In this document: in pieces, positions 744 to 47,239 of the stretch
Layout: each line of letters begins with the position of its first letter
Numbering within the stretch: position 1 is the stretch's first letter
Source: Marsupella aquatica
Lineage: Eukaryota > Plantae > Marchantiophyta
Direction: 5' to 3'
DNA length: 64,000 nt
Assembly (NCBI GenBank): GCA_973895155.1
Contig: OZ316891.1
Coordinates: 1,727,324-1,791,323 of the forward strand
Position numbers and translations under genes: made by a program
The notes under the pieces: model-generated
The model's input: only the letters and a program-made list of their open reading frames with translations
The model's database searches: none
Told to the model about the DNA's origin: nothing

Positions 744-921
744 TTGATATGAAAGAACCAACCAATTAAAATACCACTGGGCATATAAAAGGAGGAGTGT
801 CCAAAAATTCTCAATTTTTCACTTTTCTCTCATCAGTGGGTAAATTCAATCAGACCACCTTGAGACTTTGCTCCACAATTTTGGGAAAAAATACTAAAAA
901 TGGTGAAATATGTGTAACCAT

Positions 922-4546: not shown

Positions 4547-4722
4547 AGTTTCAACAGACTGAACCTTTTATTTTTCCTGAAGTATCGTATCTTGATTGCA
4601 GAGTTTCAACAGACTTAACCTTTTATTTTCCCTGAAGTAGCGTATCTTGATTGCAGAGTTTCAACATACTGAACCATTTATTTTTCCTGAAGTATCGTAT
4701 CTTGATTGCAGAGTTTCAACAG
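4547..4722 (+). repeat. 55-bp tandem repeat, ~3.2 copies
   Basis: agtttcaac starts at 4547, 4602, 4657 and 4712; each unit ends gtatcttgattgcag. Confidence 0.9.
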
Positions 4723-4871
4723 TGTCTTTATCCGAAGTCCGTGTAGAGTTAGAAATAGTTGTGTTGGTACGGCCAGATAATTCTGGTGCGACCTTATAGC
4801 GACATAACATTATGCCTTCCTGCTACAGATGAGACACGTGCGACGGCTTGAAAATGAATGTGCTGTGTTCC

Positions 4872-5041
4872 TGGCCAAAGGTGGTACATGGAGACCATAG
4901 GGTTCCATTCAAGGAACAATGGGTTCGATCCTCCTTCTTAAGCTGGGAAGTTCCACTTCAGCATGTCGAGTGAATTCGCCTCACTGACTCGCTGAATTCT
5001 CTTTCTGGGATGCTGTGGTCTCCATACACCACGATTGGCCA
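4872..5041 (+). ncRNA. Candidate pre-miRNA hairpin H1 (long loop)
   Basis: 5' arm TGGTACATGGAGACCATAGG (4882-4901) pairs with ctgtggtctccatacacca (5013-5031) at 17/19 positions including one G:U; closed by tggcca/tggcca. Confidence 0.7.
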
Positions 5042-5242
5042 CGAGGCAAAATGGGAAGGCAAAGTGGTTCGATTATCTGAAGTGTTTGGGGCTATTCTGA
5101 TAAGTCCGCCCTGCAAATCTTCGGTTCAACATACCATGAATGACCTGCAGTTGAAAAGATATACACATAAGTTTTCGTAGCGGAAGACATTGGGCCTTCT
5201 CGTTTGTATTCATCCTGTACGAGCTTACAATCAATAACCTCC

Positions 5243-5325
5243 AGGCCAACCATGGTACATGGAGACCATAGGCTGGCAAGCTAACTAAGGCTGCACTTCT
5301 ATGGCTCCATGCACCATGATTGTCA
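5243..5325 (+). ncRNA. Candidate pre-miRNA hairpin H2
   Basis: Identical 20-mer at 5253-5272; 3' arm ctatggctccatgcaccatg 5299-5318. Confidence 0.65.
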
Positions 5326-5427
5326 TGTGGGTGAACGGGAATGAAAGCTTGTATAGCTGAAGACATCTGTTTGTTGGGCAGGGATCTGAACTGCTAACGT
5401 ACGTGCATAGACTGCACGTAACGACCT

Positions 5428-5510
5428 CCAGGCTTGAGGTAGTCCACACTTAGAGACCCTGTAGCCTGGTAGGCTTTGATGCAAATCTATGTTTCCAGAT
5501 TCCAGGCATG
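5428..5510 (+). pseudogene. Decayed hairpin H3 of the same family
   Basis: Flanks and loop (gacctccaggc ... ctggtaggctttg.tgcaaatctatg.ttccaga) match H5, but the conserved 20-mer is disrupted. Confidence 0.5.
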
Positions 5511-5617
5511 TCTTGCTTGTGATTGTTTCCTGGTCGAAGAACTTTAGTTAGTCAATCTTGACTTGATTGGTCATGTACAGTAGATATTACCATAAATGAT
5601 ATATATATATATATGTC

Positions 5618-5698
5618 CAAGCCATCCATGGTACGTGGAGACCATAGGTTGACAACCTTCGCTGCAAATCTATGGGTCCATACACCATGAGCGGCTTG
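5618..5698 (+). ncRNA. Candidate pre-miRNA hairpin H4
   Basis: TGGTACGTGGAGACCATAGG 5629-5648 (1 change); 3' arm ctatgggtccatacaccatg 5670-5689; base caagcc/ggcttg. Confidence 0.65.
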
Positions 5699-5791
5699 CA
5701 GATAAACTGACAACAACCTTCGTTGCTGCAGACATTGGGCCAGTTACTAAATAAGGCCCTCACGTTGGTGTCGGTGGCAATTGACGACCTC

Positions 5792-5872
5792 CAGGCCAGC
5801 CGTGGTACATGGAGACCATAGGCTGGTAGGCTTTGCTGCAAGTCTATGGTTCCAGATACCACGAATGACTTG
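5792..5872 (+). ncRNA. Candidate pre-miRNA hairpin H5
   Basis: Identical 20-mer 5803-5822; 3' arm ctatggttccagataccacg 5844-5863. Confidence 0.65.
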
Positions 5873-5950
5873 CTGGTGAAATTTTTTGGTCGACATATTA
5901 GTCCATTTCGACTAGATTGGTTACAAAGGTACTACAATAAATGATGTCTT

Positions 5951-6031
5951 CAAGTCATCCATGGTACATGGAGACCATAGGTTAACAGCGTTCGCTGCGA
6001 ATCTGTGGCTCCATACACCATGAGCGGCCTG
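5951..6031 (+). ncRNA. Candidate pre-miRNA hairpin H6
   Basis: Identical 20-mer 5962-5981; 3' arm ctgtggctccatacaccatg 6003-6022. Confidence 0.65.
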
Positions 6032-6134
6032 CAGATAAAATGAGGCGAAAACTGTTCTTACTGGAGATCTAGCTGGAGATGCTGGACTATCTAGTGCAAC
6101 TTCTCACGTTGGTGTACAGTGGCAAATGACCTCC

Positions 6135-6214
6135 ATGCCAGCCATGGTACATGGAGATCATAGGGTGGCAGTCTTTGCTTCAAATCTATGGCTCCATACA
6201 CCATGATTGGCGTG
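6135..6214 (+). ncRNA. Candidate pre-miRNA hairpin H7
   Basis: TGGTACATGGAGATCATAGG 6145-6164 (1 change, still pairs as U:G); 3' arm ctatggctccatacaccatg 6186-6205. Confidence 0.65.
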
Positions 6215-7071
6215 CAGGGTAAACGTGGAAGATTCGCGCCCCCCGCTCCTGTTTGCCTTGGCCGAGAGCCGTGCGTGTCCTCAGCTTCCTACTGGCGTCG
6301 GGATTTGAGCAATATCAATGGCAGTTTCCCTATTAGCTAACTTTCCCCTCCTCAAATGTTTAATCGTCCTGGAAGACAATCTTCTTGAATTCGGATTCAC
6401 AACTCGGAAGTTTTCATAGCTTAGAAATATATTACGTAGTCTGCTTTAGCACGGCTGGTGTTTTATGGTATATATGGTGTTTTACGCTTTCTGTTATATG
6501 TATGCATTTAGTCTGGTATATTACGGATGCATTCTTACACTGGCGGAGGGGAACACAGCGACGGACTCGATCGATGCCAATAGATGGTTATTGCCATGGA
6601 TCTCGTGCCCGATCTCATGTCGTGTTTCTGTCTTCTCTCCCGAGAAGAATGAGCATCACTACGCTATTGCATGCAATCAGTCTATGGAGAGAGCTGTCTC
6701 GATTGTGTTTCATCTCCTTGAATTTGTTGCTGTATTGCTGCTGTGTCCATATACTTTGGTCAAATTAATGAACTAGCCATTGGTCAAATGAATGAACTTT
6801 GACAACGGGACTACTTGAGCTCAAGTGGCCGCCCCTGTCATTTCTAAAAGTAATTCAATCTGTACGTTTGCCAGTTAGCTTGCCTCCAGCGTTATTTATG
6901 CATGAATTACCTCTTTTCCTTTCCCTTTCATGTTCAGACTTTGATGATCTCCTTTGCTTAATCTTCTTCACTGCTGATAAGATATAAATTTCCTGAGAAT
7001 TTTTGGTCGAGGAGCTTTGTGGATCGCGAGCTCAATATATGCATTCGTGCATTAAATGGACGATTGTGCTT

Positions 7072-7187
7072 TTGGCCAGCTGTGGTACATGGAGACCATA
7101 GGATCGCAGTAAAGAAGCAATCGGATCGTTTGATCTCATTGAACTCTTCTCTGAATGCTGTGGTCTCCATACACCACGATTGTCCAA
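7072..7187 (+). ncRNA. Candidate pre-miRNA hairpin H8 (long loop, H1-like)
   Basis: Identical 20-mer 7083-7102; 3' arm ctgtggtctccatacaccacg 7158-7178, same as H1. Confidence 0.7.
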
Positions 7188-8639
7188 CAGGCAGGACATG
7201 CTGCATCATTTCTGGTAGTACAGCTACTCCAACGACTATCGGTGGCCAATGTTGCAAGCTCCGTGACAAGTCAATCCGGCAAGGTTTTGTGTATCCAAAA
7301 TTCACACACTACCTCAGCACATGACAAGATTTCCCAGTAGTACAAAAGCCACGGTTTAGATCGTGAAGGATTTGAGTCTGAATTTTACAAAATGTTCTAC
7401 CTCCAACTCCTATCGAACTGTCTGTCATTGTGCAGTAAGTAAACAGCAGCTTGCAGCGCGGAGTGAAGAGTGAAGAGTGGAGATTGTGTCCCTGAGGGTT
7501 TCCGCACATCGCCGGCGCCAGGCTTAGAATTCTAGCGTAAACACGCTATGCTCATCTTGTGTAATGGAGACCACAATATTACAGCCAAATTACATTGTGG
7601 GGCTCTAACGGTGACTTTGAGAAAAACATTTAAGTGAGAGTAGATTTGGAACCGTTTACATTTCTGGCCCATCTGCATTCCTTCCGGTCGAGTACGAAGC
7701 TAGGCATAGTTGTAGCGTTGTTTATTTTGTGAGATATCAAGAATTATAATAAAGTGCGACTCCTTTTTAACAATGGTGTTCATTTGAATTTGCAGTTTCA
7801 TTGCCAGAAAAAAATGTAAAGAAACTTAGTATAGAAGGGAAAACTTAAGCACCCAATGGATTCCCGCTAGACACTCCATTGTCCTTGCCATACATTGTAC
7901 ATACTCCAGTATAATATTTTTGTCAGTACAATCTCAGTCTGTGCTGTGTCAATCATTCTCTATAGAGTATTTACCCTTGCCCCAATGTACAATTGGTTGT
8001 ATTCAAAAGCAAACTCCCTAAGAGCCAATTTGGTGTAATAGAAACTATCTTAGTTCTCATTTTACACAAAGTTTGCATTTTTTCACCTTTTCTAAGGCTC
8101 ATCTTACAATTTTCTCATCTTTTCTAGGCAGACCTGAAATCTATTAGCTAAAACATAACTTTATAAGTGCAAAACCCTTTACGAGTGCATTTTGTACTCA
8201 AACTAAGAAAGGTTATACACTTATCAGTAACCACATAATCCAATGAGATGCATTGTCTGATAAGTGCACACCCTTTCTTATTAAAAGAAACCTGGACCCT
8301 TGGAATTGGACACCCACTTTTAGGGCAAATATTTACCTTCTGTGTAACGAGTCACGCAGCTTACAGGTGGAGATGCCACTTATTATAAGTGCAAATTTTA
8401 GGGGGTTTGCACTTATCAAGCAATGGAAAAACTATTTAGTGCACATCGGATCCGTCTTTGTGACAGTGTCACTTATAGAGAGTTAACTGTATTTGCATGT
8501 GTCATACAATGAACATACAATGAACTCAATCTGCACCTGCCCCTCCACTTGTACTCACTCCAAGAAAACAAGTATACTAAGAAAATTGAATATGTTTTTA
8601 AAAAAATGGTAACTTCTTGAAAAAATGGCAACTTCCTGA

Positions 8640-10924: not shown

Positions 10925-12171
10925 TTGTTCTTAATTATGAACGGGGTTATTCATTGTGCAGGGTCTTGAGTTGCTGAAGAAATCTTACTCGTATAAAGGA
11001 GTTTTCGAGCTTTTTATTTCAAGGGGGGGCACCTACAGCCCAAAGAATCGCAAGTTCAGATGCGAATTATGCAAACCCTTTCCTATCCCAGCACAAGATT
11101 TGGGATGGGATCCCATTCAACCTACAGCTCGAAGCTTGTCAGTTTCTAGAAACGAATTTTTGCGTAATCAAAATTTTCTTATATTCTGTAGCAAAGTGAG
11201 GGCTGTTGATAGACTGTCAGTCCCTGTGCAAGGAGAAAGAATGGGTGAGAGGGGAGAAATAACGGCCAGGTGAAATGTCCTCGGCGAGGACCTAGGGGTG
11301 ACAGGGGGAATGGCGGGCAAAACAAAATGGCCAGGCAAACGCAAACAATATACATTTTGTATCATGGATAACAAAAGCGGGTTACACTTTTCATGCAGCC
11401 TTGCTTAGACTAACGTAAACAAAACACTGAAGAGCGTGATGGTGAATGGGGAGCCACGAGGTCAGGCCTGCAGCTGCTTCGTGCAACGTGGATCTCAACT
11501 GGCTGGGATCTGCGTGCGGGCGGTGGTCGACTGTGAGTTACAATAAACGGGATTGGTAAGCTAAGAGTCATGTCGATACTATTTGGGGGGCAGCATAGGA
11601 AACATCTTCTGTAGTTTTGGGGCTAGGTTTATAATAATTAAAGTTCAGTTTTCTTGTCTTGAACGGAAATGAGGAAGAGCACAAAGAGAATTAAAGCTCA
11701 GTTTTGGGGGAAGCCTAGTACACGTCTTGTCTTCATATCCTCTGTCGAAGGGACTAAAAAGGTTGGAGCATTCAATGCTGGGAAATGGAACCATCTCAAC
11801 GTCTCAACGTCTCAACGCTCCAAATTAAATGCCACAATTTGCTTAGCTGCTAGCTTCGAACATCGGTAAAATCTATGTTACTATGGTAGATTCGAGATGG
11901 TGTCGGCAGGATCTCAACAACACTCATCCATAACTTGTAGTTTTGTGAATTTGACAGATGTTCGAAACAAGTGTCTCAATCTCAGTAGACTGCTTCGTTA
12001 CAAACAATGGAGGCTTTTTGACTGTGGCCGAGAGCTGGTCTCAATCCCCAGCAGGTCTACAGTACGCAAGAATGTGTTTGCATTGTCCTCACAGAAACAG
12101 TGCTCAACATTTCCCCTCCAGCTGCAATTTGGCTCGATTTCATCAACATCATTCTAGCGATCCTCCCCAAA

Positions 12172-12996
12172 ATGAGGCAAGTACGAGAGAATCTCTTCCT
12201 GGGGGACATCACAGATGCATATTCGGTTCTTCAATCGGCCCAGCCCAAAGTCACACACTTGCTCTCTGTATTTGCAGAGGAGCTTCTCTCCAGCCAGAAC
12301 TTCGGAAATCTTTGTTCTCTAGTTACAATAAATACTGCTTGGGCCCCCCGGTCCGTACCTGTCTTCTTCAATACAGGAAATCCTAGACCATCTCTCGAGG
12401 CCCCGGTTTGTGGAGCTGAGGTTGGCCAAGATGTAGCAAGCGAACGGGAGCTCATTCGGAAGACGGTGTCCTTGAGGGACATGGAATCCGAGAACTTGCT
12501 GGACCATCTGGAGTCGTGTCTCGAATTCATAGAAGAGGGGAGGAAGGCTCGAGGAGGTGTGCTAGTTCACTGCCTGGCTGGAATCTCTCGTAGTGCGTCT
12601 GTGGTCACAGCATATCTGATGAGAACTGAGAATCTTCCTTTAATTCATGCTCTGGCGTCTCTTCGTGAAGTGAGTGCAGCTGTCTGCCCTAACAATGGGT
12701 TCATCGATCAGCTGAGAATGTTTGAAGACATGGGTTATAGAGTCGATCAGGAGAGCCCCATTTACAAGCAGTTTCAGGCTACCACTTTGGCCAGCCGCGC
12801 CAAATGCACTCCCGGGTTCAATTGGCTCTCGTTTGGGGGACAGTCGTCGTTTATGAAGCACGTCCACAGTGTCGCTCCGCCAGGGAAGGGCGGGAAGTCA
12901 GTGGCAAAGGGCATTTCATCGAAAGATTCATCAGGTAATGCTCCCTTTCGGGTTTGGAACTTTCGTCTCTGGCGGAGACCGTTGGATCCCAAATGA
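12172..12996 (+). CDS. Dual-specificity phosphatase, DUSP12/YVH1-like, intronless and lacking the C-terminal zinc-binding domain
   Basis: ORF 12100-12996, likely ATG 12172 (MRQVRENLFLGDI). DSP motifs LRDMESENLLDHL, catalytic VHCLAGISRSASVVTAYLM, VCPNNGFIDQL. Homology ends at about YKQFQATTLA. Confidence 0.8.
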   Translation: MRQVRENLFLGDITDAYSVLQSAQPKVTHLLSVFAEELLSSQNFGNLCSLVTINTAWAPRSVPVFFNTGNPRPSLEAPVCGAEVGQDVASERELIRKTVSLRDMESENLLDHLESCLEFIEEGRKARGGVLVHCLAGISRSASVVTAYLMRTENLPLIHALASLREVSAAVCPNNGFIDQLRMFEDMGYRVDQESPIYKQFQATTLASRAKCTPGFNWLSFGGQSSFMKHVHSVAPPGKGGKSVAKGISSKDSSGNAPFRVWNFRLWRRPLDPK

Positions 12997-16526: not shown

Positions 16527-24361
<7,835 letters not shown>

Positions 24362-29508: not shown

Positions 29509-30964
29509 TTCTTACATAATACTAATTAATAGGGTGAACTTTGTAGCTCATATCTTGCACCTTTGACATCTCGTTTGACATGGGCACATTTATAGTTGTC
29601 GTTCATTCCTAATGAAGCTTTAATGAGAAGCCAATCTTAGCTCACCTTGCTCAGGACCCATTCTAGACATAGTTGAGGACGGGATTGAGCATGGGAGATT
29701 TGGGAATGTGAGCAAACTATTTGCTCAAATGACTTAGTTTGGAATGGGGTTTGCAAATAATAAATTATGCAGTTTTTTGCTGATGTCACAACCAAACTAG
29801 TATAGCAAAATGATTATGTATGGTTTTTGAATAAACAAGGTTAACTTGCCATCTCTAGGGTTTTGAAGTTAGCAGCCTCCAATCTTTATACTTTGTTGCA
29901 CAGTGTGTGAACCCCCTAAGTGTCAACAATCAGCCACAACAACATGCAATTGTGCCAGTTTTCCCTTATTGTCTTGTTTAAAAAAGTGAAATGGGTGGAA
30001 CCTCAAAGATTTAACAAGCAACCACTACAACATGCAATTTTGCCAAAACTCCTCCATCGTCTATTTTAAAAAAGGAAATGGGTGGGATTAAAATAATACT
30101 GACCAAACATTGAAATCATGTTTATTCCACACTGTTCAATCAACCCCCAAAAAGGTCTCACCGACCCTTGAGGCCATGCTCAATCCCTCCCTGACCCCAA
30201 ACTCCCTGATGCGCATCTGGGAGGAGAGAACGAGGGAGAGCCGGGAGGTCAAGGGGAGCACGAGAGTGAGTTTAAGAGGAATTTTGTGAAACCTCACAGA
30301 AAGGGAAGAGTATGCCACTATAGTTGAACTGCCACTATAGTTAAACCCAAGACCTATTAGTCTCTAATCAGGTGAACTACCACAAAGTCATGCTTCTCTG
30401 GGCACACTCAGTCATGCTTCTCTGGGCACACTCAGGAACTTGACCATTAAATATGGAAGACCTGGTAAAGGGAAACAACTGAGTACTGTAGCCATATCAA
30501 GATGCATGTGTTCTGTAGAGACAGTCAATTTAACTTGCTCTAAAGGCAACAGAAATGGCAAGAGGTCAAAGACAACAATTCAAGCATCAAAACAAGAAAC
30601 TTGCTAGCGCCACACAAATCACCTCCATTTTTGCAGTGCTGATGTGGAAATTATTTTTAGCACTTGGAGGAAATGGGGAATGACCTTGGATGGATAGAAA
30701 ACGTATAGTAACTTGCCTGCATTTTCATATTCCAAATTGCCCGAAGTCCTTACTATCACTGGAGCATTGTTTCATTATATCAACACCATGTCTCTACAGC
30801 AGGGAGGATATCAGCCACATCAACTACTAATCTTGAGCTGATACAAGTCAATTTGCCACTGCCACTGCTGCCATCACCAGCTGGACGTAATACTGTTTCC
30901 AGTCATCAAGATTAGTTGATCGTGGCGGACATCACCCCAACAACGGATTCTGACGCGCTACCAC

Positions 30965-33054
30965 TTGTACCTGAGAGTGAGTCTTACGTACATAGCTCAA
31001 GCGGACTCAGCACCACCGTCTGTTCCACATGATGAGTATCCCACAATCATTCCACCACTTGGCAATGTCGCATCGGAGGAGCTCGTTGATGATCTTGAGG
31101 CAGCTCTAGCAATTACACCACCAATGCTACGAAGGTCTTCACGTTCTACGAAAAGGAGTACCACCGAGAGTACCACCAATACAATTAATACTCTAATCTG
31201 GTCAACATTGTCTTTGTTGTCACATATGCCATCCAAGCTGTTGTACTCCTACTCCATGGCATTACATTCCTTGTCTACCACTGATCATGTATGGCATACA
31301 CATAGGGAGGCCATGATGAGTATATCTGATGCACAACAATGGTATGATGCAAAGCAACTGGAGTTGGCACAATTACAAAAATTGAAGGTTGCACATCTTA
31401 CAACTTTACCAGCGGGGGACTGCCTGATCCCATCAAAATGGGTCTACTCTTACAAAAGATTGACTGGACTCCACAAGGCAAGGTTTGTGGCTATAGGGGA
31501 CAAGCACAGGCCCAAGGAAGATTTTCAGGACACCTTTGCATCTGTGGTCCGACCCGAGACATTTTGCCTACTTATGGCTCTCATCACAACACAAGACCTT
31601 GAGGCTATTTAAGGCAATTGATGTGGTCACAATGTTTCCCTACGCTCTCATGGCTGGACAAATTCCCATTTACATTCCTCCACCTGGGTATGAAACATAT
31701 GATGTTCAAGGTAGATTACTTGTATGGCTTCTATTTAAAAGCTCTCTATGACTTGCGTCAATCTTTGCGTCTGTGGTACCTAGAGATACTGAGTATTTGA
31801 CAATATATGATTTCTTACCACTACCTTTAGATCCATGTGTATTGCGCCATTCATCAGGGGATCTACTCATGCTGTGGGTGGATGATATATATCATTGTCA
31901 TTTCAAGCAATGTTGAGGGCACTACGAGATTGCAAAATATTCTACAATCCAAGTATGAAATTCGTGAACTAGGTGATCTTACTGAGTACCTTGGCCTCAC
32001 CATTGTTTGGGATAGAGCTCGGGAAGAGCAAGAGGAATACTTTATCTCTCTCAAAATCAATACTGCTGAGAAAATTTTGCTCAGATTCCACATGGAAAAT
32101 CATGCAGCAACATCAGCCCCATCAAGCGACACCGATAGATTGCTTCCGAGCAATATGCAGGCAACCCCTGATCAATGTCAATTGTACCAATTGTTTTGTT
32201 GGCTCATTAATGTATCTCACAGTGTGGACTAGGCCGGATATTGCTAAGAGGTGTTCCCGGCTTGGGCAATTTGCCCACAATCCAGCCCCTGAGCATCAAA
32301 GTTACATTAGACATGTCATGGCGTATGTGGGTTCAACTGTCAACCTGGCCATTAAGTATCAACAGACCTGCTCACTTGGTTTTGGAGATACATTCTCTGA
32401 ATTTTCAGGGCTTTTCAAATGCATCACATGCAGGAAATGAAGTCGATCGGAAATCAACTTCTGGATACCTTTTTCAAGCTTGTTGCCGGGGCAATCAGCT
32501 GGAAGTCCTGCGAGCAACCTCTCACTGCTACTAGCTCCACTGAGGCAGAATACATGGCATACTCAATTGCCTGCAAAGAAGCTGTTTGGCTTTGACAGCT
32601 TCTTTCAGACCTCAAGCTTTGTTCTCCAGACCTGATATTCAACAGTTCTGATCTATGGTGATGATAAGCCGACTTTGGCGCTGACTGTGAATCCAAAACA
32701 TCATTTGAGGACTATTCAAGCACATTTCAATTTAGTGGCATTACGTGCGAGAATAGGTTCGCAAAGGAGTTGTCAAGTTGGAATACCTATCAACTTTGGA
32801 TGTGCCTGCAGATGGACTCACTAAACCACTGGCAGGAGCCCCTTTTTGAAGGTTTGTCGAATTGTTGGGACTGTGCTCTCTCCCCTCAACATTTTCCTCT
32901 GATTCTGGATGCTCAACCTATCAACTTTGGATATGCCTGCAGATGGACTCACGAAACCACTGGCAGGAGCTCCTTTTCGAAGGTTTGTCGAATTGTTGGG
33001 ACTGTGCTCTCTCCCCTCGACATTTTCCTCTGATTCTGGATGATCAAGGGGGTG
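30965..33054 (+). mobile_element. Degenerate Ty1/Copia pol (RT + RNase H) with PPT
   Basis: Motifs IPSKWVY, HKARFVA.G, KALYDLRQS, LWVDDI, VGSLMYLTVWTRPDI, DRKSTSGYLF, SSTEAEY across frameshifted ORFs; PPT aagggggtg ending ~33054. Confidence 0.9.
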
Positions 33055-33470: not shown

Positions 33471-33688
33471 TGTTGGAACTAACGGCAGCATGGATCAGCT
33501 AGGATTGAACCTAGGACATCCTGTGTACATCATAGTGCTCTACCACTGAGCTAGAGGCCCTTCATGCCTACACCATCATAGTGCTCTACAAGTGAGCTAC
33601 AAGCCCTTCATGCCTACACCATCATAGTGCTCTACAAGCTACAAGCCCTTCATGCCTACATCATCATGAGTGTGGTTCATTTCTAACA
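33471..33688. mobile_element. Short LTR-like element (TGTTGGAA...TTCTAACA) containing a tRNA-derived segment
   Basis: LTR-type termini enclose a minus-strand tRNA-like sequence and ~45-bp internal repeats. Confidence 0.5.
33491..33560 (-). pseudogene. tRNA-derived sequence with Pol III A and B boxes; not a functional tRNA
   Basis: Minus strand reads GGGCCTCTAGCTCAGTGGTAGAGCA...CTAGGTTCAATCCTAG. D-stem GCTC/GAGC intact; anticodon arm and acceptor stem degenerate. Confidence 0.7.
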
Positions 33689-34116: not shown

Positions 34117-37032
34117 TCAAAAAATTAGCGCGGGGAGAACTGGAAGGTGACCATCTTCGGGATCCCACATGTTAGAGCAGCTGGTGTTGCCGCCATTGCC
34201 CATGGTATCATATTTCATTGAGAGGGTGGGCGTCGGGTCCATGACCAGAATCTCATTTTCGTTCCCGAACGGCTGAAGGATATCCATGTCCCAGATGCTC
34301 ACGTCGTCGACGCTACTGCAATTGGATATCATCCCAAGATAGTGGGCACTGTTGGTAGACGACGAGTGGTCTGCACTGACCGATTCTTGGAGTTGGCAGG
34401 AGCTTTGCATGCGGGTTTGCATGTCATCTGTATCCCCAATATCCGTGAGCAAAAAAGAATTCAACTGCTGAATACTTTGTGTGCCAGTGCGTATGACCTC
34501 CGGTAATTGAACATGTGCCTCCCATCCATTTCTCGATGTGAGCCCAGATTCGTACGATGATGGAGTTGAGATTCCTGTACAACTCAGATTACTATTTTAG
34601 ATCGATAACAATGAATACACAAAATAAAGGTTAGAATGAAAAATTGAGCAAGAATCCAAAGGTTTTTTTCCCCTAATTACTATTTAGCCCAGGATAGGGG
34701 GATCGACAGATGAGGAGCCATATGTATAGGAGCTCAAGAGATTGTTGCGTTCAATAACAATGATGAGGTCCAATTATGGCCAAAGTAAAAGCTAGCTAAA
34801 TTACCTCCGTCAACCAGATATCCGCTGCTGGCGGTGGGTGTGGATGTGATGGACGGGCTTTCTCCAAAGACACCAAGCGGTTGCTGGTGTCTTTGGTCCG
34901 GGAATTGGAGCTCGAGATCCGAGTGACTGCAGCTGTTGCTAAAATCTGAAATCATGTGAGAGCACTCTCTGTCTGCACACCCGAAGCTGCAGTGCTGGAG
35001 GATGCTGACGGGAGAGCACGGGGAACCTAGCATGGATAGACTCTCCATGCCAGACTTATCCAGTGCGAAGCTGGAGCTGAGGGATCTGCTTACAGGAAGA
35101 GCATCTGACGCAACACAATGATGCTCTTTTAATTGAGGCAGCTGCATCATGTGCGAGTGATCGGGATACATCACGCTACCCCTCAGGAAGCTCTCGACAA
35201 GGGCCACTGATTTTTTATAGTTATCGTCACGTGTTGCGGCTGCTGTGCCACCGTTTGAGGATGCGTGATTGGAGGACGAGATAACAGACTTGGGCTTGAA
35301 TCCAACTGCTGCGTTAGTGGTCGATCTGTGAAACAGCTGCTGGGGTACTTGCGCAGGACTGAAATTGCACTGCTCATGTGATCCATCTTGCCCCTCGGCT
35401 AGGACGCCCGTTTGTAGCTGTTGCTGCTGCTTGCTCAACGATCGGTGTGTGTGTGGGTCGATTCCCATACTCCGTAGCTTCTTCTTGAGATGAGTGTTCC
35501 AGTAATTCTTAATTTCATTGTCAGTCCTCCCTGGTAGGCGGCCAGCTATCAACGACCATCTGCAACGACGCAAGTATTTGAACTCATTATCATTTCGAAG
35601 GTGCCGGCAGGGCTTCGTGCTGTAACATACACTTGGGGTATGGTGAGTTCGTTGCTACGAGGGAGTGTACGTCTTCAAACCATACAGTCATTCAATTACT
35701 GGAGAGATACAATTCTGATTTCTCGTGATTACTGGACAGATCGAATTCTGATTCTCTGAACTTTCGGCTCTCCGAGCGCCTTCGCGATTTACGGAATTCG
35801 TGACATACTGAGGGTACGCGTTCCTCATAAACAACAAAACGACACATAATTCTAGACTGTAGCAATACATGAATGATTGAGGAGGTTGTCGAGATAATCT
35901 TGAGAGCAAGCGTAGCTTGACTGACCTGTTGCCAAGAAGAGTGTGCAAGGTTATGATAAGCTGGTCCTCTTCCTCCGAGATGTTTCCGCGCTTAAGGTCA
36001 GGGCGGAGGTAGTTGATCCAACGCAGTCGGCAGCTCTTCCCGCAGCGCAACAGCCCTGCACACGTACAATAATTCATGTCGCCAATGTTTCAGATAATTA
36101 CTATCTCCAGGCAATTGACGTTGCAATTGGAGTTGACGAATCGGAAAACGTGTCATCCGTTGAAATATTCGCCAACGTAACACTCCAATTGAAACATCTA
36201 TCCTAGCTATAAGTAAGATCGAATGATCATCAGGCCATTCGAAATTGCTATGCTCGACATATCATATTTTGTCGTCGCGCGAACTCACCACACGCAATCG
36301 TTTGGAGACGAGGAGGCGAGAATGAAACAAAAAAAATGAAACAAAAAAAATGAATAAATGCACGTACCCTAGTACTTCGTAATATTTAGGCCAAACTAAG
36401 TCTAAAGGATCAGAATTGCTCAGTTCAAATTATCCATTGGTGCTGTGCACGCGAGTCAGTTAAGTATAAGTAATTTGATTTTGTGCAGGCAGCAAACTCC
36501 CTTTAGCCAGCCGTTCAGTAAGTCTGGCCAAGATGTAGAATTGTTCGTAGAGCGAAAATTCGAATTGCGGGCATGGGCACTTGCAAAATAAGTTTTTAGG
36601 CAATAATTCGACGACTCCTTACCAAAGTTATCCTCGAAAAATCTGCTCTCTAAAAAATTCTCAGAAACTGGCTTTCTGATGCGTCCAAGACTTGTGATTT
36701 CGAAATGATTGTCGCCAGAAAAACAACCAAAGTCAAACATCAACAAACGAATGGACAACGCAGCGCAAATCACAAGTCCAGAACCAAGACCCTAGTACTT
36801 CCATATCCGCGATATCATGGACCCCTGGCTCTGGTATTTCACAGTTCGCTTGAATTACACTACAGGATTATCACACATGTATATGACATCGGTGTTCACC
36901 AGCAGATTTTGGAAGCGTTCGCCAACAGCCTTCGCCATGCTTCGTAATATATTCCGTCAGCGTCAGATCCTCCTCCCTTGTCCACGGCCCTCTGTTCAGC
37001 CCAACTTTCTCGCAACACGGAGCTCGTCCCAT
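34117..37032 (-). CDS. R2R3-MYB transcription factor, 4 exons
   Basis: E1 37032-36900 (133 nt, [18 protein letters not shown]...); E2 36055-35926 (130 nt, [24 protein letters not shown]); E3 35559-34805 ([33 protein letters not shown]); E4 34574-34117 in frame via GT-AG. The 133/130 exon pattern is canonical. Confidence 0.92.
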
Positions 37033-39870: not shown

Positions 39871-41473
39871 GAGCTAATAATACTGGAACACAAATAGCAT
39901 GGGTACTCTTAGGCCCAACTCACATCTGATGGTAACTTTGTTTTGCTGCACTCAAAATGACTCATGTCAGTTATTACACCATTCAGCGAGACTTTCATGC
40001 AGTAAACCCCTTGTCAGGCAGGCTTGAAGGCATCTCCTCTCGAGAACCAAGGGCTGGAATCTTTAGACTGGCCGTGTGAGGTCCCAACGTCAAACTTGGG
40101 AATAAAACAACAAAAAATCAGACCAGGACATGCAAGTATAGACATTCGCAAGAATGAGGGACTGCATAGGGACGCACGCATTGCACTGTCTTGATCATAT
40201 CCTGTTTTGAATCAAGTTCATTCTGCTTATTGTTACTTTTTTGGCTCTTAATAAGGGCCGCATTTTTCAGGACGGCCCACATGAGTAGGAGAGAGAATGA
40301 CTCCACTCGCTTTTGGTCAAATCCAAGGCAACAAGTGAAAATGTGAGGGTAGGGTCTCAATTAGTCTTCTAGGCCACTTCGTGGGTTCTTTGTTTTTTGT
40401 TACCTCTATTGTTGTGGGGGACTCCTTGGCTCTTGTGGGGGTCTCCTTGTTTGGCTTGTTGCTCGTCTTGGGGCCTTTTCCCCCAGAAGACAAGGAAGGG
40501 GAAAAGGTCTTGGGCAGTGGCATAATTATATAGCAAGTAACATCAAATAGGCAGGCTGGACAACAGGTGGCCCCTGCCCACCAATCAGTGAGGTGTGGAA
40601 GCCACCATCTCTCTTTTCTCCCAAAGAAGCGGAAAAGTTTTCCCAAGGGACTGGAGGACCTTTATTCCAGGACGCTCTCTGTGACGACACCATGACTCCT
40701 TCCTAAGTACCCCCCAACCTTCATTTCGCCGTTCTTTGCTCGTATGGCACTCGTTTTCCACAAATTCACAATGGCGAGCTCTGCATTGATCGATGTGGAG
40801 CAACAATTATTATACCGAACAACTGGGTGGGTCCTCTTCCCCGTTGGTGACAGCCGAGTGCTTTTCTGGGTTTGAAGCTCTCTGCGGGAGAACAGTTCCA
40901 AGGCGCGTCGATCAGGTGAGTTTCTCATGCCCAAAGCAAGTGAGTCGGCTCAAAGGGGATGAGCCGGTCTCCGCCACGATGTTTCAAAGCGTGATTCAGA
41001 AGCACGTAGTGGTGTTAATGGCGGAGAGGAACCGACTGTCTGCACTGTGTTGGGAGTTTTGATCCGTCTTGGGAGTTCTGATCCAAGCGTTAGAGATAGA
41101 GAGAACGGTGCAGGCTTCGAGGAGGAGCAACACTGAAAAGTGGGTCACGAAAACTAAGAAACGAGGAGCATTCGGCTGTGGAAGCGAAAGGGGAAGAAGA
41201 ATGCCGATGCTTCTCGAGTGAAGGAGGGGCGAAGCGGTTGCGCAAGTCGAACTGACAGGGCCCTGCAGGAAACACGATGGCTGAACGATTTAACTATGGA
41301 TGACCACAGCTCGGGCAAACGTTTTGGTTAATCTATGGCATTACAAACCTTCAGCTGAGGCAGCGTGGGACGCCGGACAGGCGCGAGTTTCATAGTGACG
41401 ATATCGGATTCACATTGACATTGACATTGGAATCCTTCCAGACAATAGCCACGATAAGCCAAAGACAGGCAGG

Positions 41474-42817
41474 ATGCGGATCCAGACTCTGAAGGAGTTA
41501 AGGGCAGGGGAATACGTTGGCACGAATAGGCTCAAGTTGGCATCATGTGGTCTGTCCGAATTTCCTCGGGAAATCCTCGACCTCGCGGACTCCCTCGAAG
41601 TCCTCGATCTGTCTGGTAATCCGCTCTCTCGACTACCAGATGACTTCAGTCGCCTGCAGAACCTCAAGATTGCGTTCTTCTCCGATTGCAGTTTCGCCGA
41701 GTTTCCGAAACAGTTGGCCCAATGCTGCTCCCTTGAAATGATTGCCTTCAGGGGCAATGGCATGACTACAATTCCTGAAGGTGCGTTTCCACCTGAGCTT
41801 CGTTGGCTCATCCTCACAAACAACCTCATTGAATCTCTTCCTCGGAGTGTTGGCGAATGCCATCGCCTTCAGAAAGCGATGTTGGCGGGAAATCGGCTGA
41901 CTACTTTACCGGATGAGATGGCCAATTGCAAGAAGCTGGGGCTGCTGAGAATATCAGCAAATAGGATCACCGATTTGCCAGCTTGGTTCTTTACCATGCC
42001 TGAATTGGCTTTCTTTGCCTTTGCTGGCAATCCGTGCGCCCCTTCGTTTGAAGACAATCCGGAGCTCGACGACATTCCCTGGTCAGACTTGTCAGTCAAC
42101 GAAATCCTTGGGGAGGGCGCCTCAGGAATCATTTTCAAAGGAACGTGGAGGTGTAAAGGAAATGAGAAGGATCAGGAGAAGGACGTGGCGATCAAATTGT
42201 TCAAGGGCAGTGTCACGAGCGATGGCTCCCCGGCTGATGAGATGGTCGCCTGCATTACGGCCGGCTCACACCCGAACCTCATTGATCCGATCGGTAAAAT
42301 TCACGGCCATCCAGAGGAGAAACGGGGCCTAGTCCTGCAGCTGATCCCGCCACATTACTCGAATCTGGGCCTCCCTCCCACGCTTCAGAGCTGCACCCGT
42401 GACTCCTTCGCTCCCGGAACATGCTTCTCGTCCGAAAAGTGCATCGTGGCGATTCTCCGCTCCATCGCTTCAGCGGCTGCTCATCTCCACGGCAAGGGAA
42501 TTGCTCATGGTGATCTGTACGCTCACAATGTCCTGATCGACGACGCTGGGCATGCGCTATTGGGAGATTTCGGCGCCGCAACGATCTATCGGAAGAGTCA
42601 TGCCAACGTCGAGGCCATTGAGCCCTTGGAGGTGCTGGCTTTCGGACATCTCATCGAAGATCTGTTGGGCTTGGTCGATCACGGGACCATTGATAACAAG
42701 GGAGCATTCGTAGCTGACCTTCACAGACTGCATGGTTGGTGTAGGCAGCCTGTTGTGCAAAAAAGGCCATCATTTGTGGAGATTTGCAAGGATTTAGACA
42801 ATTTGGAAGAGATGTAG
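41474..42817 (+). CDS. Intronless cytoplasmic LRR + protein kinase of microbial (fungal/bacterial) type
   Basis: 447-aa ORF with N-terminal LxxLxLxxNxLxxLP repeats; kinase motifs GEGASG, VAIK, HGDLYAHN, DFG; no signal peptide or TM segment. Confidence 0.88.
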   Translation: MRIQTLKELRAGEYVGTNRLKLASCGLSEFPREILDLADSLEVLDLSGNPLSRLPDDFSRLQNLKIAFFSDCSFAEFPKQLAQCCSLEMIAFRGNGMTTIPEGAFPPELRWLILTNNLIESLPRSVGECHRLQKAMLAGNRLTTLPDEMANCKKLGLLRISANRITDLPAWFFTMPELAFFAFAGNPCAPSFEDNPELDDIPWSDLSVNEILGEGASGIIFKGTWRCKGNEKDQEKDVAIKLFKGSVTSDGSPADEMVACITAGSHPNLIDPIGKIHGHPEEKRGLVLQLIPPHYSNLGLPPTLQSCTRDSFAPGTCFSSEKCIVAILRSIASAAAHLHGKGIAHGDLYAHNVLIDDAGHALLGDFGAATIYRKSHANVEAIEPLEVLAFGHLIEDLLGLVDHGTIDNKGAFVADLHRLHGWCRQPVVQKRPSFVEICKDLDNLEEM

Positions 42818-45499: not shown

Positions 45500-47239
45500 T
45501 CAGTCTCTGGGAGGGCCCTTCTTTGCGGCTTCAGCAGCTGCTTTCTCAGCTTCTATCACGGCAACTATCTCTTCAACTTCTGACTCCTCCAAAAGTCGTA
45601 GGCCTTCCTTTCGGGTCATGACTGCAATTTCTATGTTTTTGCCCCCACTTTCCACAACCTGCAAAGCACGTAACAGCATCAGAATCTAAGGAACTCTCAC
45701 GGATTGGATATGTAATTCCATATAAGTCCTTATCTTGGCTACCGTAATTGACCTATGTTTCTTGTTTGTATGCATCCATCTCCAAGCTAGTTCAATAGAA
45801 GACTCACATTTGGGCACAAACCAAAAATTTGCGGTCAAACCCTAGATAAAATCGGCATTTCTACAGATACAAAAGGCCATACAAGCTCCACGATGCAATC
45901 CGTATGTTTCCATTCCAGTGACTGATTAAAACAGCAGTTTGAGGAGCTCACTTCAAGGAGAGCCCGCACAGCAAGCTTCACAGTTTCTTTCCCTGCCGTC
46001 TCTGTGTAGTTTTTCTCCAAGAATTCTCGAACGGATGTGGAGTTGCGTCCTGTAGCATTTGCTTTCCAAGCTTTGAAGGTTCCCGACGGATCCGTTTGAT
46101 ATAAAGACGGCACCCCAGTGTATGGATCGAATCCAACGATTAATGTAGAAATTCCAAAGGGTCTAACGCCTCCACTTTGTGTGTACTTTTGTTGCAGTCC
46201 AGCAATAAAGCGCGTGATATACTCCACTGTAACTGGATCTTCTACAGTAAGCCTATGACTCTGACATTCCACACGAGCTCTGTTTACTAAAACTCGTGCA
46301 TCTGCTGTGAGTCCAGCAAAGGCGAGAGAGATATGATCATCCACCTTCAATATTTTCCGAACAGTGCTGCAGAAACCATTCAAGGTACTATTAGTTAACC
46401 AAGATCCGTTCCACAAATCTGCACAGTTCAAAGTTTGGAAAAACTCTTTTCGAGACTAACTTCCCAATACGCTCAATGGTCCGACTCTACAAATCCTCGT
46501 CACCATAATGTCAAGATTGGAGCAAACATTAAATACCTGTCCTTGACTAATATCTTGGACAAAGTCTGAACGGAATTCAGATCGAAACGAAAGGAATATG
46601 GTTTGTCGTAGGATCAACAACGTGTTATAACAGCTCGAGGTCTAGCCAGAACCAGATAGGTCAGAGGGACTCTCGGCCCTAACCTAAAACAGAACTTCAA
46701 AGGAGGAAACCCTAATGAAACCCCCGCACGAACCAAAGGTAATAGAAACCTACAAATGGCTTCTGAGCTGGTAAACATCCAAATTGAATTCAGGGCTAGG
46801 TCAGAAGGAAACAACTCACACGAAATGTGAAATTCATTCAACCATGACATTGAAAAGTCGACGTCCCGACACTAACGAGGACACCATTAGAAAACCTAAG
46901 ACTGGAATTCCGACACACAGGGACTAGTCCAGGACAGAAAAGTCTATGGTAGTGCCCGACCACCTCCTAGTACTGAAAAACCCAAGAGACCGATCCGCAA
47001 AGCAAGCAGGCACGAGACAGGCAGACAGGGAAGTAAGCAGAGTGGAAGGAGGGCAGCGAGACCAACCGAGCATCTTCAAGCTTGGCAGTCGATTTCTTCT
47101 CAACTCCTAGCACGATGGTGTCCGTTCCTCTCACTCCGACAGCGGCATTACCCTTGCGCACGGCCTCCAATGCATACTCCACCTGGAAGAGATGCCCGTC
47201 CGGTGAAAAGACAGTAATTGCTCGATCGTATCTCGCCAT
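45500..47239 (-). CDS. PAD1: 20S proteasome alpha-4 subunit (PSMA7/PAD), 3 exons, 248 aa
   Basis: E1 47239-47067 [27 protein letters not shown]; E2 46366-45952 ([11 protein letters not shown]); E3 45658-45500 ([14 protein letters not shown]...). Total 747 nt in frame with GT-AG junctions. Confidence 0.97.

What the first reader, a model, noticed from the sequence alone, without database searches (positions are those of the whole stretch)
4872..7187. Polycistronic cluster of 7 (+1 decayed) miRNA-like hairpins with a near-invariant 20-nt 5' arm
Seen: TGGTACATGGAGACCATAGG occurs on one strand at 4882, 5253, 5803, 5962 and 7083 (identical), and at 5629 and 6145 (one change each, at least one of which still pairs as G:U). 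Each is followed downstream, after ~20-110 nt, by an imperfect complement (ct[a/g]tgg..tcca.[a/g]cacca) forming a ~19-bp duplex with a small internal mismatch plus a lower stem. The 3' arms and loops diverge far more than the 5' arm. Established knowledge: a conserved guide with a drifting star and loop, 5'-U and an imperfect duplex is how plant DCL1/AGO1 miRNA paralogues evolve; neutral tandem DNA would diverge evenly. Inference: a lineage-specific, dosage-amplified miRNA family (predicted guide UGGUACAUGGAGACCAUAGGN) in one pri-miRNA. I do not recognise it as a conserved plant miRNA family, and 7-8 hairpins is unusually large for a plant polycistron.
Basis: partly seen in the sequence, partly recalled or inferred. 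Interest (0 to 1): 0.88.

Follow-up and report, generated by a model that had tools for sequence, protein, structure and literature searches.

The report
Amplified liverwort microRNA miR11699 cluster
A liverwort carries seven tandem hairpin copies of a microRNA already known from the model liverwort Marchantia (miR11699), and five of them have a new one-base bulge that is predicted to lengthen the microRNA to the 22-base form that can start amplified gene silencing in plants.

Summary
Observation confirmed: seven + strand hairpins (4882-7102) share a 20-nt 5' arm that is 97% identical between copies, against 78% for the partner arm and 55-60% for the lower stems; two decayed copies lie between them. 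The arm is not new. It matches positions 1-20 of Mpo-miR11699 of Marchantia polymorpha (Lin et al. 2016, supplement: 21 nt, 2,753 reads, star read once), and the copy at 5962 gives the exact 21-mer. The host is a different liverwort. Marchantia's reported precursor is one long-loop hairpin. Here there are seven in 2.3 kb, plus further hairpins at other loci (about 13 short-type copies by contig depth), with single-copy flanks, so it is not a high-copy MITE. The five short hairpins share a one-base deletion in the star arm that leaves an unpaired base in the guide at position 12-13, a geometry that can give 22-nt miRNAs. No RNA data were available, so expression, one shared transcript, product length and target are untested. 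Clusters of 7-8 same-family miRNAs exist in rice (MIR395). My look-ups found no earlier record of this cluster on other DNA in this scan.

The parts
4862..5053 (+). Hairpin H1, long-loop type. Guide 4882-4902, predicted star 5013-5033, symmetric duplex with a 2x2 mismatch at guide positions 5-6. Closest to the Marchantia precursor in star and lower stem.
   Evidence: by-eye comparison with the precursor printed
5111..5155 (+). Relic 3' arm of an H4-like hairpin; no recognisable guide upstream
   Evidence: family D3 (80% to the H4 3' arm), alignment
5233..5338 (+). Hairpin H2, short type. Guide from 5253, star about 5298-5318, guide A13 bulged.
5421..5525 (+). Decayed hairpin (duplicate of H4). 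Guide region broken by insertions and substitutions; it no longer folds as the family hairpin.
   Evidence: (D4, D9)
5609..5709 (+). Hairpin H3, short type. Guide from 5629 with A7G (G:U in the hairpin); 2x1 internal loop at positions 12-13.
5783..5883 (+). Hairpin H4, short type. Guide from 5803, 1-nt asymmetry at position 12 or 13.
5942..6042 (+). Hairpin H5, short type. Guide 5962-5982 is the exact 21-nt Mpo-miR11699 sequence; A13 bulged.
6125..6225 (+). Hairpin H6, short type. Guide from 6145 with C14U (U:G in the hairpin); A13 bulged.
7063..7198 (+). Hairpin H7, long-loop type like H1. Guide 7083-7103, predicted star 7158-7178, symmetric duplex.
   Evidence: (D7, D8)

Best explanation
This is a tandemly amplified cluster of the liverwort microRNA miR11699: seven hairpins on one strand that keep the Marchantia miR11699 sequence and are likely transcribed together and cut by DICER-LIKE1 into a guide that likely silences mRNAs through Argonaute. 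Shown: identity of guide positions 1-20 to the sequenced Marchantia miRNA, hairpin folding, constraint limited to guide positions 1-20, tandem duplication with death of two copies, low copy number, and a shared bulge in five hairpins. Inferred: one RNA polymerase II transcript over at least H1-H6 (start-to-start spacing 159-376 nt; H7 lies 938 nt further). Inferred: base-to-loop cutting, because the short hairpins have an outermost lower-stem pair 15-17 nt below the guide's 5' U. Inferred: AGO1 loading through the 5' U, and mRNA cleavage. H1 and H7 would give the 21-nt form. H2-H6 would give either a 22-nt guide with a 21-nt star or a 21-nt guide with a 20-nt star. The effect is a higher dose of one guide. 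The target is not established. The only candidates in print are Marchantia's ABC1K3 and APG1/VTE3 homologues (both plastid vitamin E/plastoquinone metabolism), with weak scores; VTE3 pairs better over guide positions 1-12.
For: Exact sequence match to Mpo-miR11699 (21 nt, 2,753 reads; star 1 read; 5' arm of a hairpin) in Lin 2016 Table S1. Host is a liverwort: a proteasome alpha gene in the window is 95-97% identical to Marchantia over its main exon, 92% to mosses, 87% to Selaginella, 84% to an angiosperm. Homology extends beyond the guide (by eye): H1/H7 stars match the Marchantia star at 18 of 21 bases, and the 10 bases before the H1 guide match at 9 of 10. Conservation stops sharply at position 20: position 21 takes all four bases, as expected for a guide's 3' end. 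Both guide changes keep G:U pairing. 6 of 39 consensus pairs show two-sided changes among H2-H6, five in the lower stem and one in the upper stem. The dead duplicate of H4 lost its guide while the duplicated block aligns at 263 of 328 positions. Flanks are single-copy in the matching run: depth 15.5-18.1.
Against: No RNA evidence for this organism (one search listed no RNA holder, which says nothing either way). Marchantia support is one study with a single star read and a 267-nt loop. miR11699 was not found in any of 16 supplementary files of a Marchantia dcl-mutant study, so DCL1 dependence is not shown. The covariation term of the H2-H6 consensus fold is unfavourable (+2.04). The minus strand folds with lower energy in 2 of 7 hairpins (H2, H3). 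In organism B one paralogue has a 4-nt duplication after guide position 18, so the arm is not invariant everywhere. No TATAAA lies on the + strand between 3000 and the first hairpin. Published targets score 3.5 and 4.5 with 12 and 46 degradome reads, and their sites could not be checked in this host.
Confidence: 0.87

Rival explanations
1. Same family, but the hairpins are separate genes, or only some (for example the Marchantia-like H1 and H7) are processed; the short bulged hairpins are poorly processed by-products of tandem duplication.
For: No transcript data. H7 is 938 nt from H6 and a TATAAA lies at 6983, 100 nt before its guide. Two copies have already decayed. H3 against H5 alone (19 of 20 guide bases, block 137 of 166) is not a strong test of selection.
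Against: Among H2-H6 alone the guide has 2 of 20 variable columns against 12 and 11 of 20 in the lower stems and 20 of 20 in the flanks, so the short hairpins are themselves constrained. Same-strand spacing under 1 kb is taken as suggestive of co-transcription in plants.
Confidence: 0.08
2. A MITE or other foldback transposon family whose terminal repeats mimic miRNA arms.
For: Related hairpins occur at other loci of the same run.
Against: Summed depth is only about 13 times single copy (196.1/15.5), while a true repeat at 8176-8500 shows hundreds of summed depth. Conservation sits on one inner arm, not on both outer ends. No shared target-site duplication: longest flanking direct repeats are 3-6 nt and differ between units. 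The flanks are single-copy. The arm is a sequenced Marchantia miRNA.
Confidence: 0.03
3. The functional RNA is the minus strand: a non-coding target or decoy carrying seven near-perfect miR11699 sites (multi-hit siRNA locus or sponge).
For: The minus strand necessarily holds seven sites scoring 0-2 against the guide, and it folds better for H2 and H3.
Against: Each site sits in its own hairpin with a lower stem and star homologous to the Marchantia precursor, in the orientation that yields the Marchantia miRNA. The + strand folds better in 5 of 7.
Confidence: 0.02

Closest known systems
Mpo-MIR11699 of Marchantia polymorpha (Lin et al. 2016, PMC4788410; abstract, passages and term searches of supplementary file 2 seen; file 1 not searchable; blot image not visible)
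   Same: Guide positions 1-20 identical (5 of 7 copies; H5 identical over all 21), 5' arm, 5' U, similar star and lower stem in H1 and H7.
   Different: Marchantia: one hairpin in a 1,165-nt transcript contig, 267-nt loop, duplex without asymmetry. Here: seven hairpins plus two relics in 2.3 kb, further hairpins at other loci, guide-to-star distances of 20-110 nt, an internal mismatch at positions 5-7, and a 1-nt asymmetry at positions 12-13 in five hairpins.
Homologous polycistronic plant miRNA clusters, e.g. rice MIR395a-g and MIR395m-s,x (Merchan et al. 2009, PMC2812943; passages)
   Same: Same-strand tandem hairpins of one family, up to eight, from successive duplications, with birth and death of copies.
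   Different: Those are conserved angiosperm families with known targets. This is a liverwort family without an established target; co-transcription is untested here.
22-nt miRNAs from asymmetric duplexes that trigger secondary siRNAs (PMC4615586, passages; bioRxiv 10.1101/310920, start of abstract in a search listing; the miR482/2118 parallel is recalled, not from a call)
   Same: A single unpaired base on the guide strand, and a G:U pair at position 20 in all five short hairpins that gives a 22/21 duplex with 2-nt overhangs.
   Different: No length or phasing data. PMC4615586 shows that such a bulge can instead leave the bulged strand at 21 nt and shorten the partner to 20 nt.

Membership tests
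MIR11699 family | Mature sequence identical or within about two changes of Mpo-miR11699 | tested here: met
   5 of 7 copies identical at positions 1-20, 2 of 7 with one change; H5 identical at 21 of 21
MIR11699 family | Guide on the 5' arm of a hairpin with a homologous star and lower stem | tested here: met
   Folds; H1/H7 star 18 of 21 and H1 upstream 9 of 10 bases equal to the precursor printed (compared by eye, not aligned by a tool)
MIR11699 family | Orthologous (syntenic) locus and shared target site | not testable with these tools
   No host genome is held and no Marchantia genome is on hand
Plant MIRNA locus (criteria recalled from the annotation literature) | Hairpin under 300 nt, duplex with at most five mismatched positions and at most three bases in asymmetric bulges | tested here: met
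   101-192 nt folded; 2-4 unpaired guide positions; at most 1 nt of asymmetry
Plant MIRNA locus (criteria recalled from the annotation literature) | Precise miRNA and miRNA* reads in replicated small-RNA libraries from this organism | not testable with these tools
   No RNA holder listed; reads exist only for the Marchantia homologue
Homologous polycistronic miRNA cluster | Same-family hairpins on one strand less than 1 kb apart | tested here: met
   Spacings 371, 376, 174, 159, 183, 938 nt
Homologous polycistronic miRNA cluster | One primary transcript covering several hairpins | not testable with these tools
   No RNA reads
MITE | High copy number, dispersed | tested here: not met
   About 13 times single-copy depth at 80% identity or more to H6; the other hairpins seen are also in tandem (tables 5, 8)
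MITE | Conserved terminal inverted repeats with target-site duplications | tested here: not met
   Outer stems 55-60% identical against 97% for the inner arm; no common flanking duplication (a simple test)
22-nt secondary-siRNA trigger miRNAs | One-base asymmetric bulge on the guide strand | tested here: met
   In 5 of 7 hairpins (H2-H6) 18 star bases span guide positions 1-19; in H1 and H7, 19 do
22-nt secondary-siRNA trigger miRNAs | Predominant 22-nt product and phased siRNAs downstream of the target cut | not testable with these tools
   No small-RNA data

The most novel reading that the evidence does not exclude
A liverwort lineage turned a single-copy 21-nt miRNA into a multi-locus battery of about a dozen compact hairpins whose shared bulge makes a 22-nt form. 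That form triggers phased secondary siRNAs from its target(s), while the two ancestral-type hairpins in the same transcript still make the 21-nt form. This would be a bryophyte counterpart of the clustered 22-nt triggers of flowering plants, with both states side by side.
Probability: 0.2. Interest if true: 0.72.

Novelty: new variant of a known kind. Interest (0 to 1): 0.4.

Why it matters
miR11699 has been a row in one supplementary table, with no main-text mention among the papers searched. Its exact retention and roughly tenfold amplification in a second liverwort indicate a selected, functional liverwort miRNA with a target still to be pinned down. Marchantia is tractable, so the target is directly testable there. 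A 2022 review reported one two-hairpin polycistronic locus in Marchantia, so a seven-hairpin cluster changes what liverwort miRNA genes can look like. The locus also holds symmetric and bulged duplexes of the same guide, a natural test of whether a bryophyte DCL1 makes 22-nt miRNAs from bulged stems.

Tried and rejected
Whole-genome search: no genome is held. Rfam: no family at gathering score over the cluster; the only hit in the window is a borderline tRNA; weak MIR848, MIR169_2 and TCL6_2 hits at E 3.9-9 are chance. Sequencing runs: no RNA holder listed among 4 runs, which is no evidence on expression. Metagenome scan: 10 of 10 loci lack the family hairpin; nine are one bacterial coding sequence and one is an unrelated contig, taken as chance. 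Literature: the guide in RNA letters, 0 papers; 'miR11699' in main texts, 0 papers; no sequence hit in Pellia supplements (2 files), a 2024 Marchantia miRNA paper (1 small file), a dcl-mutant paper (16 files) or a 47-plant small-RNA paper (8 files held, file 1 not searched). The 2022 review's supplements and Tsuzuki 2016 could not be read and may name this miRNA otherwise. The northern probe is listed but the blot is an image, so its result is unseen. Target scan of the window found only the cluster's own minus strand at score 6 or lower. The per-base variant table shows 13 of 13 rows at 6165-6185 (loop side) and none in the guide, but it seems to hide differences within about 30 bases of piece ends, so I did not use it as evidence. 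I considered a miR538-like MADS-box target and PPR targets from recalled motifs and dropped them: no call supports them. No ORF within the cluster is a plausible gene: the two frames of 120 codons or more at 6364-6768 and 6962-7324 have no Pfam hit.

Full report
Observation. The 20-mer is present at all seven stated places on the + strand and nowhere else in the window at up to three mismatches; shuffles give none. Each copy is the 5' arm of a hairpin with z-scores of -4.2 to -6.6 and MFEI 0.79-0.92. There are two types. H1 (4882) and H7 (7083) have long loops, a symmetric duplex and resemble each other (D7 and D8). H2-H6 (5253-6145) are compact, with 20-25 nt between guide and star. A decayed duplicate of H4 lies at about 5421-5525 and a relic 3' arm at 5111-5155. 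The block holding the decayed copy and H3 aligns with H4 plus H5 at 263 of 328 positions, which shows a two-hairpin tandem duplication after which one guide died.

Pattern of constraint. Mean pairwise identity is 0.97 for guide positions 1-20, 0.78 for the star, 0.55 and 0.60 for the lower stems and 0.24-0.30 for the flanks. Position 21 takes all four bases. The contrast holds among the five short hairpins alone: 2 of 20 variable columns in the guide against 12 and 11 of 20 in the lower stems. Both guide changes (A7G, C14U) keep G:U pairs. In the consensus fold of H2-H6, 6 of 39 pairs have two-sided changes, five in the lower stem and one in the upper stem, although the overall covariation term is unfavourable (+2.04).

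Host. A proteasome alpha-4 gene in the window is 95-97% identical to Marchantia proteins over its main exon, 92% to two mosses, 87% to Selaginella and 84% to an angiosperm; its C-terminal part is only 59% identical to Marchantia (7 of 120 listed proteins were compared). I read this as a liverwort related to, but distinct from, Marchantia polymorpha. Earlier unchecked notes on this genome also said liverwort.

Identity. Supplementary Table S1 of Lin et al. 2016 (PMC4788410) lists Mpo-miR11699: 21 nt, 2,753 reads, star read once, from the 5' arm of a precursor with a 267-nt loop. Its first 20 bases are the window's 20-mer, and H5 reproduces all 21. By eye, the H1 and H7 stars match the Marchantia star at 18 of 21 bases and the ten bases before the H1 guide match at nine. 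The guide occurs once per listing of the 1,165-nt Marchantia transcript contig (7 occurrences over three table rows), so the reported precursor is a single hairpin. A northern probe is listed; the text says most miRNAs above 700 reads were detected, but the blot itself is not visible to me. The name appears in no main text searched, and the sequence was not found in the supplements of four other papers. Supplements and papers that I could not read (file 1) may hold more.

Copy number. No genome is held, so I used public contigs. Four runs of two coded organisms hold the stretch; the best may be the window's own source. In that run the flanks are covered by single contigs at depth 15.5-18.1, with no other contig over 3500-4501 or 6339-7006, so the cluster is not inside a multi-copy element. 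Laying contigs on H6 alone gave 10 contigs in X1 and 18 in X3, including other contigs with tandem hairpins; summed depth over the star is 196, about 13 times single copy. This counts only copies at least 80% alike to H6 and is rough. It argues for a small multi-locus family and against a MITE, as do the lack of a common target-site duplication and the inner, one-sided conservation. One paralogue in organism B has a 4-nt duplication after guide position 18, a result against strict invariance.

Mechanism. Shown: sequence identity to a sequenced miRNA, folding, constraint, duplication history. Inferred from general knowledge of plant miRNA biogenesis (recalled): transcription by RNA polymerase II, base-to-loop cutting by DCL1 (outermost lower-stem pair 15-17 nt below the guide in H2-H6), AGO1 loading by the 5' U, and mRNA cleavage. 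Marchantia has DCL1a, DCL1b, DCL3 and DCL4 and a miR390-TAS3 pathway (PMC11799827), but miR11699 is absent from that study's 16 supplementary files, so its DCL1 dependence is not shown. Co-transcription is inferred from same-strand spacing of 159-938 nt (criterion in PMC2812943). The target is open. Lin et al. list an ABC1K3 homologue (expectation 4.5, 46 degradome reads) and an APG1/VTE3 methyltransferase homologue (3.5, 12 reads), both plastid vitamin E or plastoquinone genes. These are weak, and I could not test them in this host. No target lies in the window.

In all five short hairpins only 18 star bases span guide positions 1-19, against 19 in H1 and H7; the Marchantia duplex printed is also symmetric. 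The unpaired base is A13 in H2, H5 and H6, G12 or A13 in H4, and part of a 2x1 loop in H3. All five also pair G20 with U, which H1 and H7 do not, giving a 22-nt guide with a 21-nt star if DCL1 ignores the bulge. Asymmetric bulges are the known source of 22-nt miRNAs, which are enriched among triggers of secondary siRNAs; the same paper shows the alternative outcome, a 21-nt bulged strand with a 20-nt partner (PMC4615586). The listed paralogous pieces align to H6 without gaps, so the amplified form is the bulged one. This is a prediction only.

Comparison. It is a member of the MIR11699 family by sequence and precursor anatomy; orthology and target were not testable. It works like the homologous clusters of flowering plants, where up to eight miR395 hairpins cluster in rice. 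It is unusual for liverworts: the 2022 review found one polycistronic locus of two hairpins among 23 units in Marchantia, against 25% polycistronic miRNAs in Physcomitrium. Look-ups in this scan's earlier findings returned no look-alike stretch, an unrelated cephalopod array and a different hairpin cluster inside a transposon.

Verdict. A real, selected miRNA cluster of a catalogued but unstudied liverwort family. New are the second host, the amplification and the bulged duplex. Expression, one transcript, product length and target all await RNA data. Interest 0.4; the 22-nt trigger reading has probability about 0.2 and would deserve about 0.72.

Noticed in passing
window 7556-7612: A weak hairpin (-13.9 kcal/mol for 7545-7620) containing a 10-base core of the guide (D6); possibly a further, older relic, or chance.
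   Followed up: partly
other loci in runs X1 and X3: Further tandem hairpins of the family: a 6,789-nt contig with at least two hairpins about 170 nt apart, a 428-nt contig with two, and a 312-nt contig; listed pieces align to H6 without gaps, so they share the bulge.
   Followed up: partly
paralogue seen in runs X3 and X4: In organism B one paralogous hairpin has a 4-nt duplication after guide position 18; the matching paralogue in organism A does not.
   Followed up: no
window 4547-4722: Three copies of a 55-nt tandem unit (94-97% identical) just upstream of the first hairpin (D5).
   Followed up: no
window 8150-8490: Multi-copy element with nested inverted repeats, MITE-like; summed depth 263-2,254 across the four runs. 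A moderately repeated stretch precedes it at about 7675-8175.
   Followed up: no
window 858-910 and 1872-1925: A pair of long inverted repeats about 1 kb apart, seen by eye; possibly the ends of a non-autonomous DNA transposon.
   Followed up: no
window 12022-58466: Pfam hits in open frames: dual-specificity phosphatase 12022-12996 (+), SAP and cwf21 17060-18625 (-), copia-type RT fragment 30920-31612 (+), Myb repeats 34734-36089 (-), LRR plus kinase 41399-42817 (+), proteasome alpha subunit 45503-47239 (-).
   Followed up: partly
window 33491-33560 (-): Borderline Rfam tRNA hit, 29.4 bits against a cut-off of 29.
   Followed up: no
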